NCBI GenBank assembly: GCA_964632315.1
Contig: CAZWEM010000065.1
Location: 1-14,291 of the forward strand
Reading direction: 5' to 3'
DNA: 14,291 nt
DNA from: an uncultured archaeon
Lineage (GTDB): Archaea > Asgardarchaeota > Lokiarchaeia > Sigyniarchaeales > SOKP01
The translations under genes and the position numbers were made by a program. Below are positions 1 to 13,322 of this stretch, piece after piece (position 1 is the first letter of the stretch; every line of letters starts with the position of its first letter). The notes beneath the pieces are model-generated. The model was not told the origin of the DNA. It did no database searches and saw only the letters and a program-made list of their open reading frames with translations.

Positions 1-965
1 AATCTGTTCCAGAAGTTTATTTGATTTAGTAATTCTTTCTTTTTTCTCTTGGTTTTCATTATAACTTGAGATACCTTGGTCCTAAATTTAAACAATTTTT
101 TTATATATTCATAAAAATCGATATTATATCTTTTTGTAATTAGATCTGAATTCAATAAAGGAACAGATAATGAATTTTGTACTGTATGTTTATTAATATG
201 CATTGCATGATCACCAATAGAATAGGAAAAAGTTATGGATTTTAAAACAGAATCAAAAGACTGAAATTTTCCAAGAGTTCTTGGTTCTTGAGTAAAATAT
301 CCATGCAGCAACGTATCAGTTCCTTTATAGACATTATTTTCATATTCTGAAATAATTATTGACTCGAATTCACCGGGGTGATGTCTTTTTATATTGAATC
401 TTTCACTTACTAGCAAAATAGCTTGGTTAGCCCTATGGCAGACCGTGTAACACCATTTTAAAAAAAATTCAAGAAATTTTTTGGATTTAAAATTATAATA
501 GTAAAAATCAGGATTAAATAAGATTGGAAATCCAAAACCCCTTGATGTAGAAAATATAAATTGATAAACGTTTCTCGTTTTCTCACCTTTTATAATTCCT
601 GGAAATCGATAATGTAATACCAATTTTGGATAAAGCGCTTTAAATCCCATATCCATCCATGCTTCAAATAAAATAATACCATCGGGAAACTTAAAGGAGT
701 CTTTTTTCGTTGTAAAATCTTCATTAAGAGCAAGTAAAGCAGAAGGAATGGAGTGCAACCAATCACCACTGGATTGTAGCAATTTCACACCTTCTTTAAA
801 TTTAAGTAATAAGTATGGCTTGATCTGCTCTTGTATTTCACTCTTTTTATGATAATAGTTGTTCATTACTCTTATTAAGGATAAGATTTCCATTATTTGC
901 CTTTGAACATCATGTGAGACATTAACACGAGATGATTCAGTATCAATTGGTTTGGAGCCCTTCAA
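1..965 (-). CDS. Hypothetical protein, 3'-truncated by the window edge (about 321 aa visible from TTG 965; alternative start ATG 893)
   Basis: My manual translation is stop-free from 998 to the window start (…MEILSLIRVMNNYYHKKSEIQEQIKPYLLLKFKEGVKLLQSSGDWLHSIPSALL…KKELLNQINFWNR). It is missing from the ORF track, presumably because its stop lies outside the window. No recognisable motif, and the start codon is uncertain. Confidence 0.8.
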   Translation of the reverse strand, partial: MKGSKPIDTESSRVNVSHDVQRQIMEILSLIRVMNNYYHKKSEIQEQIKPYLLLKFKEGVKLLQSSGDWLHSIPSALLALNEDFTTKKDSFKFPDGIILFEAWMDMGFKALYPKLVLHYRFPGIIKGEKTRNVYQFIFSTSRGFGFPILFNPDFYYYNFKSKKFLEFFLKWCYTVCHRANQAILLVSERFNIKRHHPGEFESIIISEYENNVYKGTDTLLHGYFTQEPRTLGKFQSFDSVLKSITFSYSIGDHAMHINKHTVQNSLSVPLLNSDLITKRYNIDFYEYIKKLFKFRTKVSQVIMKTKRKKKELLNQINFWNR

Positions 966-1091: not shown

Positions 1092-1565
1092 TTAACCTTG
1101 ATTTTGCCTTTTGGCAAATAAAGTTTTTAACTCGCTCATTATTGCGCCTCTCAAACTAACTGGACTCGCGGGACGTACTGCACCTGGAGCACCCGGTCCT
1201 GGTGGTGGACCTCCTGGTGGACCTCCTGGTGGCGGTGGTGGACCTCCTGGTGGACCTCCGGGCGGAGGAGGTGGAGCATTTGATGGTGTTGGAGCACTAT
1301 TGGGTGCACTGGGGGCTGAAACAATGGGAGCTGATGAAGAGGATCGTGATTTAATTGCGGTAAGGTCGCTATTAACTGCATTCAACCTTGTTTCTAATGA
1401 TGTGAGTTTTTGGTTTATAGTTAATAATGATTGGTCCACTAGATCGGGGATCCTAAGGATCATTGACATCATTTTTTCGACGATATCCCCGAAAGCATTT
1501 ACTTTATCTTCAATAGGTGACTTTCGAGCCTTGTCCAAGAAGCTTGAAAATTCTTCAGCACACAT
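1092..1565 (-). CDS. Coiled-coil + polyproline + C-terminal amphipathic basic helix protein (Ena/VASP- or WASP-family-like candidate actin regulator)
   Basis: ATG start, 157 aa. Heptad-like segment INQKLTSLETRLNAVNSDLTAIK, then a Ser/Pro/Ala linker, then APPPPPGGPPGGPPPPPGGPPGGPPP, then C-terminal RGAIMSELKTLFAKRQ. Same strand as all neighbours. The CDS is well supported; the function is inferred. Confidence 0.7.
   Translation of the reverse strand: MCAEEFSSFLDKARKSPIEDKVNAFGDIVEKMMSMILRIPDLVDQSLLTINQKLTSLETRLNAVNSDLTAIKSRSSSSAPIVSAPSAPNSAPTPSNAPPPPPGGPPGGPPPPPGGPPGGPPPGPGAPGAVRPASPVSLRGAIMSELKTLFAKRQNQG
1201..1266. repeat. 33-bp tandem duplication built from 12-bp ggtggacctcct subunits, encoding the repeated PPPPPGGPPGG unit
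   Basis: 1201-1233 and 1234-1266 match at 30/33 positions. The three differences are synonymous third positions of Pro codons in the minus-strand ORF. Confidence 0.9.
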
Positions 1566-1676: not shown

Positions 1677-2297
1677 TTAACTCATTTTTGATACTGAATC
1701 TTTCACTTTCATCCATAAACTGTCTACTTCATCTCTTTCTTGTAAAAATTGGTTGAGGCTTTTTATCATAACATCTCTTGCTCTATCAAATTCTCTTTGA
1801 ATATCATTAAATTCAGATTCTAATATTTTCATTTTCTCTCCCTCAATTAAGTCATTTTTCTTTTTTTCTACCGATAATGCCTTTTTTATCACTGTACTCC
1901 TCCTTTGAGCGACATCATTCAAGGCATTTGCAAATTCTTGCTTCTTTTCTACAAAATATTCTTTTTTAAGAGTCAGATTCTTAATTGCATCAATATATTT
2001 TTTAGTATTTTCAATATAATTATCATTTTGATGGATTATTTCCTGAAATAAATTGACTTCTTCATCTTTAATATTAGATCTCTTTTCCCTTACTAAGGTT
2101 TGCATTTGTTTTAAAACATCTCTAAAGGTTCTATTAAGCATTTCGCGAGCAAGGTTTGCTTTAGTAAGGTTTTCAGCATACTTTTGTTGAGAATTTATTA
2201 ATACGGTTTGAGCTCTAGAATGTTTTTTTATTTGTTTTACTAATTCTTGTTCAGTTTTTGCTAATTCAAGTTCATCTTCATGGGTTATAATTGGCAT
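1677..2297 (-). CDS. All-helical 206-aa coiled-coil protein, putative BAR-domain (SNX-BAR/Vps5-C-like) protein
   Basis: I prefer ATG 2297 over the track's TTG 2321 because TAAGGTGATT (archaeal SD) lies just upstream. Nearly free of Pro/Gly, BAR-sized, with a basic patch (RRSTVIKKALSVEKKK) before a last helix EKMKILESEFNDIQREFDRARDVMIKSLNQFLQER that resembles SNX-BAR helix 3. The CDS is solid; the BAR call is tentative. Confidence 0.55.
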   Translation of the reverse strand: MPIITHEDELELAKTEQELVKQIKKHSRAQTVLINSQQKYAENLTKANLAREMLNRTFRDVLKQMQTLVREKRSNIKDEEVNLFQEIIHQNDNYIENTKKYIDAIKNLTLKKEYFVEKKQEFANALNDVAQRRSTVIKKALSVEKKKNDLIEGEKMKILESEFNDIQREFDRARDVMIKSLNQFLQERDEVDSLWMKVKDSVSKMS

Positions 2298-4643: not shown

Positions 4644-4796
4644 TTATTGTTCTCCTAAGGCTTCTTTAATTTTCTCCAGTTCTGCCATACGTTTCTTTTT
4701 TTCTTCTTCGCGTTTCTTCATATCTTCTTCATCCACCTTTTGGAGAGATACTCCTTTCTTGATCTCGTTTTGTAATTCCTTATCGATTGGAGTCAA
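4644..4796 (-). CDS. 50-aa stand-alone WH2-motif microprotein (putative G-actin-binding peptide)
   Basis: Manual translation: MTPIDKELQNEIKKGVSLQKVDEEDMKKREEEKKKRMAELEKIKEALGEQ*. TTG start with AAGGTG about 10 nt upstream, an in-frame stop just upstream (4805-4803) that fixes the start, and a T-tract downstream. It fills an otherwise empty 440-bp gap. LxxEIKKGVSLQKV fits the WH2 consensus LLxxIRxGxxL(K/R)KV. Confidence 0.78.
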   Translation of the reverse strand: MTPIDKELQNEIKKGVSLQKVDEEDMKKREEEKKKRMAELEKIKEALGEQ

Positions 4797-10310: not shown

Positions 10311-13300
10311 ATGAAAAAAATTAATACCAATAAAATGGGTCTTATCATTTGGATTATATTCTTGATGCTTTCACCTACAATACAAACCCGAGAAGGAGGA
10401 ATTAATTCGAATTTAATGCTTAAAACTAATGAGCTCAATGAAAATAATTTCAATGATGAAGAAGTTAAAGATTCTTCTTCAAACAATAACTATGAGCTAT
10501 TACAAGCCATTATGGACCAGAAATGCGCGGATTATCAATATCTAGGATATTATCCACAAATCTTTGAGTCTTCACTCCAAGCTACGTATTATGGACTCTA
10601 TATTTTGGAATCTTTAGATCGATTGGACTATATTAACGCAACGATATTAGAAAATTTCATAATGTCTAAATATTTAGAAAACAAGCATTACTTTATTGAT
10701 TCATATGCATATCGCTATCTTGATTGTGACTACTATTCTCTCTGGCCTTGGCACTCCCTCTTGGAAGTTAACTGTTATGCAATCTTATCCTTACAAATTT
10801 TAGAGAAATTAGAATTAATTGATAAGCAACAGTTCGTCAATTTCATATGGAGTTGCTACAATCCCATGACTAGTGGCTTTATCGGAAAACCCTTTAATCC
10901 CGACTTACCCTCCTATTTTCAACTTTCCACTCTTGATAACACGTATTTTGCGATTAAAACCTTGAATACATTGATGGATGATTGGAGCGCTTACACGTCA
11001 GTTATATCTGAATTAACCATATTCATGAACAGTTTGCAATCTTATGGAATAAATGGCGGATTCTTAAATGATGACAACTTCACCATTGGTTCCCTTTGTA
11101 TATGCGAGCCAAACATTATATCCACCTATTATGCTGTAAAAAGTCTTGAGACAATTGGGATGCTTGAAACGATTCGTACTCCAGATCTCCACGAAAATCT
11201 AGCAAATTTATATCACGATGACAAGTATTTCGATATTTCGTGGTATCCAATAGTCAATAATGAAAGTAATCTTGTTGCATCGGCTATTGGCTTGGATATC
11301 TCTAACCTAAGCAATTTTGAAGCGGTTAATTATCAAAATATCATTAAATTCTTGAGGGATAATCGTAATATTCACGGAGGGTGGGATAGTTCTACTAATT
11401 TTGATTATCACGAATTAATCGATACATTTCAAATCATCAGATCATTACGGGAAAGCGGTTATATTTGCAACCTGAGCAGTAATGAAAAAAATGAGATCGC
11501 CGTTTCGCTCGATATTTTCGAATTCAATGGATTATTTTCATTGATGCCTGAGGATTACTGTTCTTTAACGTTATTAAATACTATTGCGAGCAGTTTTCAT
11601 TATTTTGGAAGGATCTCTAATTTGCGATTACAAGAAATATATGATCAATTTCTTAAAATCCTAATTTACCATCCAGGGATTAACATCTATGAATTTGGAG
11701 CTTGTTGGGGCATTAACCCCCTCTACTGTTCTTTTCGTTCTATTCCTATTGAATTCGTAGGGTCCACCTTTCATGAACACTTTAACGGTACTGAATCAAT
11801 GCGGAGTCATAAATGGAATTTTCTCGCGCTTGATGCACTATTAAAATGTTATAAGCTAGATGATCTCCAATATGATTTAGATCTTGAATTAATAGTAAAT
11901 GAAACACTTGAATCGCAATTCTTAGACCCTACCTATGAAAATTACGGTGCATTTATTCAAGCGCCATCTTACATGGGATTTAGCAGAAAATACCAAATTC
12001 GAAATTCTTTTTTCGAATACACGTTCTACGCTATAAAAACTCTAGAATTATTGTCAAGTTTCCTCAGTTTGGGTAATTTGACTGATCTTGATTTCGATAA
12101 AATCGCATTGAGCAACTATATTTTTCGAAATGTTATTGAAACTGACTCTTACCTTTATTTCAATCCCGGTTTTACTGAGGACAAAAACATCATATTGAAA
12201 TATACTTATTACATGGCTTATGTTCTAAACGCTTTAGGTGAAAAAGTGAACAACATCCAAAAAGTCCAAAATTTTGTAATGGAATCGCTTGATTATTCAA
12301 ACATCGAAAATATCTATTATTGTTATAAACTCTCAGAAGTTTTAGACTTGGAAATCCAGTTTGATTATGAAAATATTCAAAAATTGATATCTTTACTCTA
12401 TGACCCAGAGATTCACGAATTTTATCTTGACTCAACACGAACAACGGTCTCACAAGAAGCATTTGGTTGGATTTGCGAGATAGCTAAAAATTCTAAGATG
12501 ATTTTTTACCCCCAATTCGATTCCCCTTTATATTTAGGAACAACGTGTCGGCTAGAACTCACCTTCGAAAATATGGTCTTAGATCAACTGGGGGCGAGTG
12601 GGCGCGTCTGGTTTGCCAGTGAACAATTCGGAACGATTCCGCTTTCATATCAGCCAGGAGATGTATATCAAACTAACTTTTTTATTCCATTTGAACCCGA
12701 ATTTTTTCCGATAATCGAAGGAGAAATTCAAGTTTACGAGTTAGGCTACTTCATCGATCAAGTACCAATTATCTTGCAGACCGAAATCAATCATGATATT
12801 TCGAATAAGACCATTGTCACCAATGAGGATATTCAATTTCAAGTAAACATTTCACGTTTCATTAGCGGGATTCCAAATCCATTAAACGACTCTGAAATTT
12901 TTATCGAGGTTTCTAGCAATGATACTATTACAGATATCATCGCCATGGATAAGGATGATTTCCAAGAATACTCTTTATATCATGTAGATTATGAATTCGA
13001 TCAAAAAACTCAATACAAGTTTAGGGCAGTTCTTTTAGACGACTATTACCCTCAAGGCATGTTTCTCTTTTCAAAATCTCTCAATCCAAAGCCCGTACTT
13101 CCTCTTATACTCCCTCCAATGAACTTAAATGGAACTGTACTTGCCATTATCGGCCTTAGTTTCTCAGTTTTTATTCCAGGTTTATTAGTGGGAGTCAATA
13201 CGAAACTTAAGAAGAAAAAGAAGCATGAAACACCCAAATTAAAAGATAAATCGAAAAGCCAGCAAGTCCCAACCGATGAAAATATACTAGAAGAAATTAA

Positions 13301-13322
13301 ACAAAAATACTTCGACGATTAA
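10311..13322 (+). CDS. Large secreted, C-terminally membrane-anchored glycoprotein with prenyltransferase/terpene-cyclase-like (alpha/alpha) barrel repeats
   Basis: Signal peptide MKKINTNKMGLIIWIIFLMLSP; about 12 repeats of the type (GGF)…TYYAxxxLxxLG; beta-rich region near aa 735-925; TM helix VLAIIGLSFSVFIPGLLVGV followed by KLKKKKK; at least 13 N-x-S/T sequons. Confidence 0.8.
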   Translation: MKKINTNKMGLIIWIIFLMLSPTIQTREGGINSNLMLKTNELNENNFNDEEVKDSSSNNNYELLQAIMDQKCADYQYLGYYPQIFESSLQATYYGLYILESLDRLDYINATILENFIMSKYLENKHYFIDSYAYRYLDCDYYSLWPWHSLLEVNCYAILSLQILEKLELIDKQQFVNFIWSCYNPMTSGFIGKPFNPDLPSYFQLSTLDNTYFAIKTLNTLMDDWSAYTSVISELTIFMNSLQSYGINGGFLNDDNFTIGSLCICEPNIISTYYAVKSLETIGMLETIRTPDLHENLANLYHDDKYFDISWYPIVNNESNLVASAIGLDISNLSNFEAVNYQNIIKFLRDNRNIHGGWDSSTNFDYHELIDTFQIIRSLRESGYICNLSSNEKNEIAVSLDIFEFNGLFSLMPEDYCSLTLLNTIASSFHYFGRISNLRLQEIYDQFLKILIYHPGINIYEFGACWGINPLYCSFRSIPIEFVGSTFHEHFNGTESMRSHKWNFLALDALLKCYKLDDLQYDLDLELIVNETLESQFLDPTYENYGAFIQAPSYMGFSRKYQIRNSFFEYTFYAIKTLELLSSFLSLGNLTDLDFDKIALSNYIFRNVIETDSYLYFNPGFTEDKNIILKYTYYMAYVLNALGEKVNNIQKVQNFVMESLDYSNIENIYYCYKLSEVLDLEIQFDYENIQKLISLLYDPEIHEFYLDSTRTTVSQEAFGWICEIAKNSKMIFYPQFDSPLYLGTTCRLELTFENMVLDQLGASGRVWFASEQFGTIPLSYQPGDVYQTNFFIPFEPEFFPIIEGEIQVYELGYFIDQVPIILQTEINHDISNKTIVTNEDIQFQVNISRFISGIPNPLNDSEIFIEVSSNDTITDIIAMDKDDFQEYSLYHVDYEFDQKTQYKFRAVLLDDYYPQGMFLFSKSLNPKPVLPLILPPMNLNGTVLAIIGLSFSVFIPGLLVGVNTKLKKKKKHETPKLKDKSKSQQVPTDENILEEIKQKYFDD

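What the first reader, a model, noticed from the sequence alone, without database searches (positions are those of the whole stretch)
1092..1565. Minimal Ena/VASP-like architecture: oligomerising coiled coil, GPPPPP tracts and an FAB-like terminal helix
Seen in the sequence: coiled coil (about aa 20-73), disordered linker, two PPPPP tracts (APPPPP and GPPPPP), then GAIMSELKTLFAKRQ. Established (sequences recalled from memory): GPPPPP is the profilin-recruiting motif of VASP, and the Ena/VASP F-actin-binding helix reads [15 protein letters not shown] in VASP and [15 protein letters not shown] in EVL. The archaeal helix aligns without gaps as G-x-[IL]-M-x-E-[LM]-x-x-[LM]-[FL]-A-[KR]-R. It also resembles the WASP 'C' helix and the first half of a WH2. 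It has no LKKT motif, no EVH1 domain and no acidic Trp tail, so it is not a complete WASP or VASP. Inference: an oligomeric profilin-actin delivery, elongation or bundling factor. Polyproline binding is reported to differ among Asgard profilins, so the partner could be another proline-binding protein.
Basis: partly seen in the sequence, partly recalled or inferred. Interest (0 to 1): 0.82.

Follow-up and report, generated by a model that had tools for sequence, protein, structure and literature searches.

The report
Asgard coiled-coil, polyproline, docking-helix protein
This is a real, expressed and widely conserved small Asgard-archaeal protein whose layout recalls eukaryotic actin-assembly factors such as VASP, MIM and WAVE, but it belongs to none of those families and nothing here shows that it binds actin.

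Summary
Window 1092-1565 (-) encodes a 157-aa protein with four parts: a short N-terminal helix, a 59-residue helix with a heptad pattern (AF2 pLDDT above 90), a disordered Pro/Gly linker with two PPPPP runs, and a terminal helix.

The family is widespread: over 180 proteins, with matches in 225 of 400 Asgard genomes across several classes. The peptide RPxsPxSLRGAIMxELKxLFaKR is almost invariant, including polar residues, while linker length and composition drift.

New here:
- The whole coil-linker-helix module also sits at the C-terminus of Arf-like GTPases, including one in this genome.
- The adjacent conserved gene folds like a BAR domain.
- The probable L. ossiferum orthologue is present in a published proteome.

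Membership tests fail. There is no EVH1, no WH2 or LKKT, no Pfam hit, and the coil is at the wrong end for VASP. The resemblance to the VASP FAB helix is unusual (about 1e-4 against a genome null) but far below family level. The BRICK1 likeness is weak.

The orthologue was not seen in the stored part of a Lokiactin co-IP, and the co-IP's 'Arf' lacks the module.

Best reading: an oligomeric adaptor carrying a portable docking helix. Actin is the leading candidate ligand but is unproven, with membrane or another protein as rivals. First readers flagged this family on other genomes.

The parts
1092..1565 (-). Whole gene, 157 aa plus stop codon (1092-1094); protein P0001
   Evidence: Homologues. 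Genome match at G000:C65:1098-1565, E 3e-73.
1521..1562 (-). N-terminal short helix (residues 2-15) with the invariant AEEFxxF motif, followed by K15 and P17
   Evidence: Invariant columns A3 E4 E5 F6 F9 K15 P17. AF2 helix 2-15.
1338..1514 (-). Long helix and coiled coil (residues 18-76). The conserved block FGDIVEKMM..L.IPDLVD is followed by regular a/d heptads from V43 to I71. This is the presumed oligomerisation element.
   Evidence: AF2 helix 18-76, pLDDT 90-97. The profile hits parallel trimeric coiled coils in the PDB at E 3e-4 to 1e-2. The heptad register was read directly from the sequence.
1176..1337 (-). Disordered Ser/Ala/Pro then Pro/Gly linker (residues 77-130) with two PPPPP runs. 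Its length varies among homologues.
   Evidence: pLDDT below 50. Gapped, variable columns. Tandem DNA repeat at 1201-1275. 116 of 165 members have a run of 5 or more prolines.
1107..1175 (-). Nearly invariant C-terminal module RPASPVSLRGAIMSELKTLFAKR (residues 131-153), with the helix at 138-155. The same module ends Arf-like GTPase fusions.
   Evidence: Invariant R131 P135 L138 R139 G140 A141 I142 E145 L146 K147 L149 F150. Kept in members of only 25-37% overall identity and in fusions P0192, P0194 and P0175. AF2 helix with pLDDT about 84.
1677..2297 (-). Adjacent upstream gene on the same strand (206 aa from the conserved MPIITHED start): a BAR-like three-helix protein, a conserved neighbour within this family of genomes
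   Evidence: AF2 pLDDT 91, pTM 0.78, helices 6-70, 78-148 and 153-205. Foldseek hits are almost all BAR domains: arfaptin, IRSp53, PinkBAR, FAM92A, endophilin; probability about 1.0, TM 0.5-0.62, E 4e-3 to 8e-2. Adjacency shown and by consecutive NCBI locus tags in five more genomes.

Best explanation
The gene encodes a small Asgard-specific adaptor protein. Its N-terminal helix and roughly 60-residue coiled coil assemble it into a parallel oligomer; three or four chains are plausible but the number is undetermined. From this stalk, each chain extends a flexible Pro/Gly arm of variable length, and each arm ends in a nearly invariant docking peptide (RPxsPxSLRGAIMxELKxLFaKR). That peptide is a portable protein-binding module, because evolution has also attached the whole coil-linker-helix unit to the C-terminus of Arf-like GTPases. 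The most likely ligand is Lokiactin. The helix would bind as WH2-type or VASP-FAB-type helices do. The oligomer would then cluster several actin subunits or filaments (nucleation, elongation or bundling), possibly helped by profilin on the polyproline tracts, at membranes shaped by the BAR-like protein encoded next door and under small-GTPase control. Shown here: the architecture, the conservation pattern, the fusions, the BAR-like fold of the neighbour, and probable expression. Inferred: oligomeric state, actin as ligand, any role for profilin, and cooperation with the BAR-like protein.
For: - **Architecture and disorder:**
- **Helix conservation:** the terminal helix is the most conserved part and includes polar residues R139, E145 and K147. 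Its ELKxLF core survives in members that share only 25-37% identity elsewhere. This pattern is typical of a specific protein contact.
- **Matching conservation of the candidate ligand:** Lokiactin is 97-100% identical in the 80 best-matching loci, which include Loki, Thor, Hod, Hermod and Odin MAGs.
- **Portable module:** it sits behind Arf-type GTPase domains in P0192, P0194 and P0175 and in this genome at C25:10610-11905. A Rab-like fusion to the N-terminal block exists (P0155). An Arf gene lies two genes downstream of distant member P0185.
- **Neighbour:** a BAR-like fold, adjacent in eight genomes.
- **FAB likeness:** p about 1e-5 to 5e-5 per window against a genome null, with the VASP FAB sequence verified.
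- **Polyproline:** 116 of 165 members have a run of 5 or more prolines.
- **Expression:** the probable orthologue GNAMCCOK_02219 appears in 16 of 16 L. ossiferum proteome samples.
- **Open niche:** the literature held names only profilins and gelsolins as Asgard actin regulators.
Against: - **No profile-level similarity** to WH2, Ena/VASP or any actin-binding family, and no LKKT motif.
- **Co-IP:** the probable L. ossiferum orthologue is absent from the stored (truncated) part of the Lokiactin co-IP table, although it is detectable in the total proteome.
- **The co-IP 'Arf'** (38.1 kDa, L094:1183-2169) lacks this module, so that published link to actin does not transfer.
- **Profilin:** Loki and Odin profilins reportedly do not bind the VASP polyproline peptide.
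- **Linker:** distant members have Pro/Thr/Ala linkers without polyproline.
- **Distribution:** no match was found in 175 of 400 Asgard genomes sampled, including whole families. Lokiactin is reported in virtually all Asgard genomes, though the two were not cross-tabulated here.
- **Synteny:** adjacency to the BAR-like gene is lost in L. ossiferum.
- **Hydrophobic moment:** the helix's value also fits a membrane-targeting sequence.
Confidence: 0.35

Rival explanations
1. The C-terminal helix is a membrane-targeting amphipathic helix of the MinD or FtsA type, or like the polybasic tails of small GTPases. The protein would be a membrane-anchored coiled-coil scaffold or tether, and the same anchor would attach the Arf-like fusion GTPases to membranes, since they lack the usual N-terminal Arf helix.
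For: The helix is at the extreme C-terminus and is followed by K/R residues; AKR, SKR or NKR follow it in most members. The own-genome Arf fusion ends ...ELKQLFDKKKKLDLP. The 11-residue hydrophobic moment is 0.57-0.75, in the range of the MinD (0.48) and Arf1 (0.70) membrane helices. Context is membrane-related: a BAR-like neighbour, a VTT-domain neighbour in a distant member, and a PAP2 lipid phosphatase next to the Arf fusion.
Against: Membrane amphipathic helices usually conserve physico-chemical character rather than sequence. Here R139, G140, E145 and K147 are invariant, and ELKxLF persists across the whole family. Over 18 residues the moment is low (0.25 on the Fauchere-Pliska scale, 0.085 on Eisenberg), because R139, E145, K152 and R153 fall inside the hydrophobic sector. 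An invariant extended RPxxPxS segment precedes the helix, which a lipid anchor would not need. Some orthologues add acidic tails, such as DDDDDD in L. ossiferum, and these would repel anionic lipids.
Confidence: 0.22
2. The helix docks onto a conserved protein other than actin, for example the BAR-like neighbour, a small GTPase or its regulator, or an unknown Asgard protein. The protein would then be a multivalent adaptor in an Arf-like GTPase pathway, and the Pro/Gly region would be only a spacer.
For: Rosetta-stone fusions to Arf-like and Rab-like GTPases. An Arf gene lies near a distant member. Linker composition is not conserved. The conserved neighbour has arfaptin, an Arf/Rac-binding BAR, as its best fold match. 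The orthologue is absent from the stored co-IP list.
Against: No candidate partner co-occurs consistently. The BAR-like gene is not adjacent in L. ossiferum, and distant loci lack it. The neighbourhood of the Arf fusion is uninformative. No direct test was possible.
Confidence: 0.28
3. The N-terminal coil is homologous to BRICK1/HSPC300 and CCDC53, the seed helices of the WAVE and WASH complexes. The protein would then be a relic of a pre-eukaryotic WAVE/WASH-type nucleation-promoting factor: coil, then proline-rich region, then a V/C-like helix.
For: The Pfam CCDC53 model is the top hit for P0001 (E 0.035). BRICK1 appears in PDB searches (E 1.9 and 0.65). hhalign of the family N-terminus against a BRICK1 alignment gives probability 62% and score 27.1 over 42 columns, above reversed controls (21.7-22.8) and heptad-preserving shuffles (14.8 +/- 2.8, maximum 19.1, 0 of 25 reaching it). 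A BRICK1 HMM ranks this protein 4th of 30,774 ORFs in the genome. The L. ossiferum orthologue adds a poly-Asp tail after the helix.
Against: Nothing is significant. Only 3 of 36 members hit CCDC53. Generic trimeric coiled coils outrank BRICK1. The reciprocal HMM gives E 0.19 over about 23 residues. The hhalign alignment needs a 7-residue gap, and the BRICK1 alignment was shallow (metazoan only). There is no Trp in the acidic tail and no LKKT. Acidic tails occur in only 11 of 165 members.
Confidence: 0.1

Closest known systems
Ena/VASP proteins (EVH1, PRR, EVH2 = GAB + FAB + tetramerisation coil)
   Same: An oligomer that carries GPPPPP-type tracts and a short basic helix. The helix aligns without gaps to the VASP FAB ([15 protein letters not shown] against GAIMSELKTLFAKRQ). 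This match is unusual against a genome-wide null.
   Different: There is no EVH1 domain and no WH2-like GAB. The coiled coil is N-terminal and has a heptad pattern, whereas VASP's is a C-terminal right-handed tetramer coil. No profile-level similarity exists. The protein is about 150 aa instead of about 380.
MIM/MTSS1 and ABBA (I-BAR/IMD, Ser/Pro-rich region, C-terminal WH2)
   Same: The order of parts matches: an N-terminal helical self-association domain, then a proline-rich region, then an actin-binding-type helix at the extreme C-terminus. A BAR-like protein is also associated, and the neighbour's fold matches IRSp53, MIM and PinkBAR I-BARs.
   Different: Here the BAR-like domain is a separate adjacent gene. 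The terminal helix lacks LKKT and does not match the Pfam WH2 model. No sequence homology was detected.
WASP-family nucleation-promoting factors WAVE and WASH with their BRICK1 or CCDC53 partner helices
   Same: An N-terminal coiled coil, then a proline-rich region, then a C-terminal short helix. The coil shows weak BRICK1/CCDC53-like similarity. A link to small GTPases is present. A few orthologues carry an acidic tail.
   Different: There is no WH2 with LKKT and no acidic-Trp motif. No Arp2/3-related feature was found or tested. The BRICK1 similarity is below significance.
C-terminal membrane-targeting amphipathic helices (MinD, FtsA)
   Same: A short basic helix at the extreme C-terminus with a comparable 11-residue hydrophobic moment.
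   Different: The sequence is nearly invariant, including polar positions. It is preceded by a conserved proline-containing extended segment, and some orthologues follow it with acidic tails.

Membership tests
Ena/VASP | N-terminal EVH1 (WH1) domain | tested here: not met
   No Pfam hit in P0001 or in any of 36 members. The N-terminus is a helix followed by a coiled coil.
Ena/VASP | Proline-rich region with GPPPPP-type profilin-binding tracts | tested here: met
   APPPPP and GPPPPP are present. 116 of 165 members have a run of 5 or more prolines. Binding to profilin was not tested.
Ena/VASP | EVH2: WH2-like GAB with a KLRK motif | tested here: not met
   No such motif is in the sequence. The Pfam WH2 model finds nothing.
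Ena/VASP | EVH2: FAB helix ([15 protein letters not shown]) | tested here: inconclusive
   Ungapped resemblance. The family PSSM scores VASP FAB at 6.3 bits and the recalled EVL FAB at 9.8 bits, reached by 4.9e-5 and 1.2e-5 of null windows, while the protein's own helix scores 48.7. The VASP sequence was verified in PMC10340426.
Ena/VASP | C-terminal tetramerisation coiled coil | tested here: not met
   The coil is N-terminal (residues 18-76). No VASP_tetra hit was listed for P0001 or among the 25 families most often hit by the 36 members.
WH2 domain (Pfam PF02205) | Amphipathic helix followed by an LKKT/V motif; match to the family HMM | tested here: not met
   No match in the whole genome at E <= 10. 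Six isolated C-terminal segments give no hit. The helix is followed by AKRQ instead of LKKT.
WASP/WAVE/WASH VCA | Acidic tail with a conserved Trp after the V and C helices | tested here: not met
   No Trp is present. Acidic tails occur in only 11 of 165 members, for example DDDDDD in the L. ossiferum orthologue. The N-WASP C helix does not resemble the family helix.
BRICK1/HSPC300 and CCDC53 | Significant profile similarity of the roughly 50-residue coil | tested here: inconclusive
   hhalign probability 62%, score 27.1, against 21.7-22.8 for reversed controls and 14.8 +/- 2.8 for shuffles. The BRICK1 HMM gives E 0.19, rank 4 of 30,774 ORFs. CCDC53 is hit by 3 of 36 members.
Membrane-targeting amphipathic helix (MinD/FtsA type) | Terminal amphipathic basic helix in which physico-chemical character, not sequence, is conserved | tested here: inconclusive
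   Position and the 11-residue moment fit. The 18-residue moment is low, and the polar residues are invariant. Lipid binding cannot be tested here.
BAR domain (for the adjacent gene 1677-2297) | Elongated three-helix bundle monomer that forms a crescent-shaped dimer | tested here: inconclusive
   The monomer fold matches BAR domains almost exclusively (probability about 1.0, TM 0.5-0.62), but E is 4e-3 to 8e-2. There is no Pfam hit. Dimerisation was not tested.

The most novel reading that the evidence does not exclude
The family is a surviving pre-eukaryotic actin-assembly factor. On this reading, a BRICK1-like oligomeric coil carries polyproline arms and a V/C- or FAB-like actin-binding helix. 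It is wired to Arf-like GTPases through gene fusions and to a BAR-like membrane sculptor through gene adjacency. The small-GTPase, BAR and proline-rich actin-binder logic of WAVE, WASH, VASP and MIM would therefore predate eukaryotes.
Probability: 0.08. Interest if true: 0.95.

Novelty: new variant of a known kind. Interest (0 to 1): 0.62.

Why it matters
Asgard archaea build dynamic, actin-filled protrusions and crawl, yet the only regulators named in the literature held here are profilins and gelsolins. What nucleates or elongates Lokiactin at membranes is an open question. This family is abundant, conserved, probably expressed and small enough to purify. Its docking helix is a defined 23-residue peptide. 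A few bench assays could therefore decide whether it is the missing assembly factor, a membrane tether or an adaptor for Arf-like GTPases. Any of the three would add a new component to Asgard cell biology. The first would push the design logic of eukaryotic actin-assembly factors back before eukaryogenesis.

Tried and rejected
- **Complex prediction:** The tool judged actin to be eukaryote-like. The job was counted, no verdict exists, and no other route was tried.
- **The published Lokiactin co-IP 'Arf' as support:** rejected. GNAMCCOK_04696 (38.1 kDa) maps to L094:1183-2169, a 329-aa, 38.12-kDa protein whose C-terminal domain is different and lacks the module.
- **The co-IP 'Bar1' or 'Bar2' as the neighbour's orthologue:** rejected. 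The neighbour's L. ossiferum homologue is 23.9 kDa at 3.02 Mb, and neither its size nor its expected locus tag fits.
- **Language-model atlas search with residues 1-80:** no usable hit.
- **Hydrophobic moment to separate a membrane helix from an actin-binding helix:** not discriminating.
- **MIM1-type (MIT-interacting) motif:** considered by eye only. The spacing (D/E)xxLxxRLxxL(K/R) does not fit ...IMxELKxLFaKR.
- **SH3 class I ligand RxxPxxP in RPASPVS:** does not fit.
- **Oligomer number from core residues:** P0001 has Leu at the a positions and Val/Ile at most d positions, but these positions vary across the family, so no call was made. The PDB profile hits to trimeric coils may reflect composition only.
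- **Searching the proteomics table by molecular weight:** swamped by intensity values.
- **Genomic context of the own-genome Arf fusion:** uninformative.

Full report
**1. Observation**

The minus-strand ORF at 1092-1565 encodes 157 aa.

AF2 with a 36-sequence alignment (model m785ba2cb5e9a) gives:
- helices at residues 2-15 and 18-76 (pLDDT 90-97 over residues 21-70);
- no structure over residues 78-135 (pLDDT below 50);
- a terminal helix at 138-155 (pLDDT about 84).

The Pro/Gly tract is encoded by a GC-rich 12/33-nt tandem repeat at 1201-1275, inside a genome of 33% GC.

**2. The family**

It is a real, conserved gene family.
- A word-indexed search found 188 proteins, mostly 142-157 aa. 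All named ones come from Asgard MAGs: Promethearchaeota/Lokiarchaeota, Thor-, Hod- and Hermodarchaeota.
- An exhaustive HMMER search of 1.8 billion representatives found 104 clusters, down to 25-37% identity.
- Across 400 genomes of the phylum, 225 have a match. That includes 123 of 134 in the window's own family and full-length matches in several other classes. Several families have none.

The alignment (A1) shows three conservation regimes:
- an invariant N-terminal block (A3 E4 E5 F6 F9 K15 P17 ... F25 G26 E30 M33 L37 I39 P40);
- a linker that varies in length and composition;
- a nearly invariant C-terminal peptide (R131 P135 L138 R139 G140 A141 I142 E145 L146 K147 L149 F150).

Distant members keep the layout and the ELKxLF core, but some have Pro/Thr/Ala linkers without polyproline. 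Of 165 small members, 116 have a run of 5 or more prolines and 35 have no run of 4 or more.

**3. What the parts look like**

From V43 to I71 the hydrophobic residues follow a clean a/d heptad. The invariant IPDLVD sits at a register shift. The family profile hits parallel trimeric coiled coils in the PDB (autotransporter adhesin stalks, Lpp, viral fusion cores) at E 3e-4 to 1e-2. Because the core residues vary across the family, I do not call the oligomer number.

No Pfam family is significant for P0001 or for any of the 36 members.

**4. New finding: the module is portable**

Three longer proteins (P0192, P0194, P0175; 399-464 aa) consist of a helix-hairpin-helix-like N-terminus and an Arf/Rag-type GTPase domain (Pfam Arf E 5e-19 to 6e-24). 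These are followed by the same coiled coil, linker and terminal helix (SLRGEIMGELKELFAKRR, TVRQAIMDELRVLFAKRR, NIRTTMMDELKAIFAKKR).

HMMs built from the family found the equivalent protein in the window's own genome, at C25:10610-11905 (-). It has a GLDNAGKS P-loop, a coil, and the ending ...SRLKVLDELKQLFDKKKKLDLP. P0155 fuses a Rab-like GTPase to the N-terminal block. In the locus of distant member P0185, an Arf-family GTPase lies two genes downstream.

The two papers on Asgard Arf GTPases held in the library do not mention such C-terminal modules.

**5. Neighbourhood**

In Lokiarchaeial genomes the gene order is conserved (and this window): nucleotidyltransferase, radical SAM, (acetyltransferase), a roughly 50-aa ORF, Pelota, radical SAM, a 207-aa helical protein, this gene, then a 551-583-aa unknown. 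Consecutive NCBI locus tags show the 207-aa gene and this gene adjacent in five more genomes.

The 207-aa protein folds confidently (pLDDT 91, pTM 0.78) into three long helices. Foldseek matches are almost exclusively BAR domains: arfaptin first, then IRSp53, PinkBAR, FAM92A, endophilin, amphiphysin and MIM. Probabilities are about 1.0 and TM-scores 0.5-0.62, but E-values are only 4e-3 to 8e-2. So the protein is BAR-like in fold; homology is not shown.

The pair is not universal. In the closed 6,035,313-bp genome G138 the two genes lie 0.39 Mb apart, and distant members lack the neighbour.

**6. Published experimental data**

A 2026 Nature paper and its preprint report a Lokiactin co-immunoprecipitation in L. 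ossiferum. It enriched a profilin, five gelsolins and an 'ARF GTPase', with two BAR proteins below significance.

I mapped locus tags onto G138 using the preprint's tables:
- The 'Arf' (GNAMCCOK_04696, 38.1 kDa) corresponds to L094:1183-2169 (329 aa, 38.12 kDa). It lacks the coil-linker-helix module, so that result cannot be borrowed.
- The family's orthologue in G138 is L098:3300-3755 (152 aa). It ends SLRGSIMDELKTLFSKRRTDDDDDD.
- The gene just upstream, an Elf1-type zinc-ribbon protein of 24.03 kDa, fits GNAMCCOK_02218 (24.01 kDa in the table, the same 0.018-kDa offset as for the Arf). That makes the orthologue GNAMCCOK_02219 by inference.
- GNAMCCOK_02219 is quantified in all 16 total-proteome samples (mean log2 intensity 18.47). 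It does not occur in the stored part of the co-IP sheet, and the file was cut on storage.

This indicates expression and is mild evidence against a stable, abundant actin complex.

**7. Membership tests**

- *WH2:* the Pfam model finds nothing in the genome at E <= 10. Six isolated C-terminal segments hit nothing relevant. There is no LKKT motif.
- *Ena/VASP:* there is no EVH1 and no GAB, and the coil is at the wrong end. The FAB resemblance is real but modest. A PSSM of the 16 helix columns scores VASP FAB at 6.3 bits and the recalled EVL FAB at 9.8 bits, reached by 4.9e-5 and 1.2e-5 of 1.43 million windows from this genome. The family's own helix scores 48.7. The WASP WH2 scores 1.4 bits (4e-4), and the N-WASP C helix is not similar. 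The VASP FAB sequence was verified in PMC10340426. The other peptides are from memory.
- *BRICK1/CCDC53:* the recalled human BRICK1 sequence was verified by its hits. hhalign against the family's N-terminus gives probability 62% and score 27.1. Reversed controls give 21.7-22.8 and heptad-preserving shuffles 14.8 +/- 2.8. The reciprocal BRICK1 HMM ranks the protein 4th of 30,774 ORFs, but at E 0.19 over about 23 residues. This is a weak lead and no more.

**8. Weighing the mechanism**

The pattern to explain is an invariant terminal peptide, polar positions included, on a variable flexible arm attached to an oligomerising stalk. That pattern points to a multivalent adaptor whose business end docks on a highly conserved protein.

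Lokiactin fits as the ligand for three reasons: it is 97-100% identical across the loci retrieved, the helix resembles FAB- and WH2-start-type helices, and the BAR-like and small-GTPase context matches eukaryotic actin-membrane modules.

Against it stand the negative profile tests, the co-IP absence, the reported failure of Loki profilins to bind a VASP polyproline peptide, and the family's absence from many Asgard genomes.

A membrane-anchor role for the helix is a serious rival, particularly for the Arf-like fusions. The hydrophobic moment does not discriminate between the two, but the sequence invariance and the occasional acidic tails argue against it. A third option is docking to another protein.

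My estimates: actin ligand about 0.35, other protein about 0.28, membrane about 0.22. BRICK1-type ancestry, about 0.1, is a separate question that is compatible with the first.

**9. Novelty**

The papers held in the library do not describe this family. Reviews and the 2026 motility paper name only profilins and gelsolins as Asgard actin regulators. First readers of this scan flagged the same family on at least six other genomes, and one follow-up report exists for a related locus. The fusion to Arf-like GTPases, the mapping onto the proteome and co-IP tables, and the controlled BRICK1 and FAB tests do not appear in the notes I was shown.

Noticed in passing
window 4644-4796 (-): A 50-aa ORF (TTG start) reads ...KELQNEIKKGVSLQKVDEEDMKK..., which by eye fits the WH2/thymosin pattern LLxxIxxGxxLKKV better than the finding's own helix. 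Genes of 50-51 aa sit at the same syntenic position, just upstream of Pelota, in L008 (2418-2570) and L009 (2716-2871). The Pfam WH2 model nevertheless finds nothing in the genome at E <= 10.
   Followed up: partly
G000:C25:10610-11905 (-), = L007:4611-5852: This genome's own 414-aa Arf-like GTPase fusion: a helix-hairpin-helix-like N-terminus, a GLDNAGKS GTPase, a coiled coil, a short linker without polyproline, and the terminal helix ...LKVLDELKQLFDKKKK. Its neighbours are an acetyl-CoA hydrolase, a PHP protein, a PAP2 lipid phosphatase, TFIIB and a TPR protein.
   Followed up: partly
L098:3300-3755 (+) (G138, closed 6,035,313-bp genome, probably L. ossiferum): The orthologue ends with the helix followed by KRRT and six aspartates, an acidic tail reminiscent of the A region of VCA domains but without Trp. 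Acidic tails occur in 11 of 165 family members.
   Followed up: partly
L098:2537-3154 (+): The Elf1-type zinc-ribbon protein (206 aa, 24.03 kDa) next to the orthologue appears to be GNAMCCOK_02218. That entry is significantly enriched in the published Lokiactin co-IP (log2FC 1.36, adjusted p 0.034). Elf1-type genes also lie two genes downstream of family members in L008 and L009.
   Followed up: no
window 3-965 (-), runs off the window; full-length relatives at L008:6659-8410 and L009:6630-8285: The gene immediately downstream of the finding is a conserved syntenic protein of 551-583 aa with no Pfam match. It could belong to the same module.
   Followed up: no
proteins P0155, P0151, P0145: The N-terminal conserved block plus coiled coil, without the terminal helix, is fused to other domains: a Rab-like GTPase with a zinc ribbon (P0155), a long C-terminal extension (P0151), and a winged-helix protein (P0145). 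The coil therefore appears to be reused on its own as well.
   Followed up: no
L094-L097 and further hits in G138: The L. ossiferum-like genome has 21 matches to the GTPase part of the fusion query, 18 of them in open frames of about 300-520 aa. The four read (318-434 aa) have C-terminal domains unlike this module. One of them is the Arf that co-purifies with Lokiactin.
   Followed up: partly
window 10311-13322 (+): A 1003-aa ORF with a hydrophobic N-terminal segment, a hydrophobic segment near the C-terminus and a lysine-rich tail, probably a large surface protein. It was not examined.
   Followed up: no
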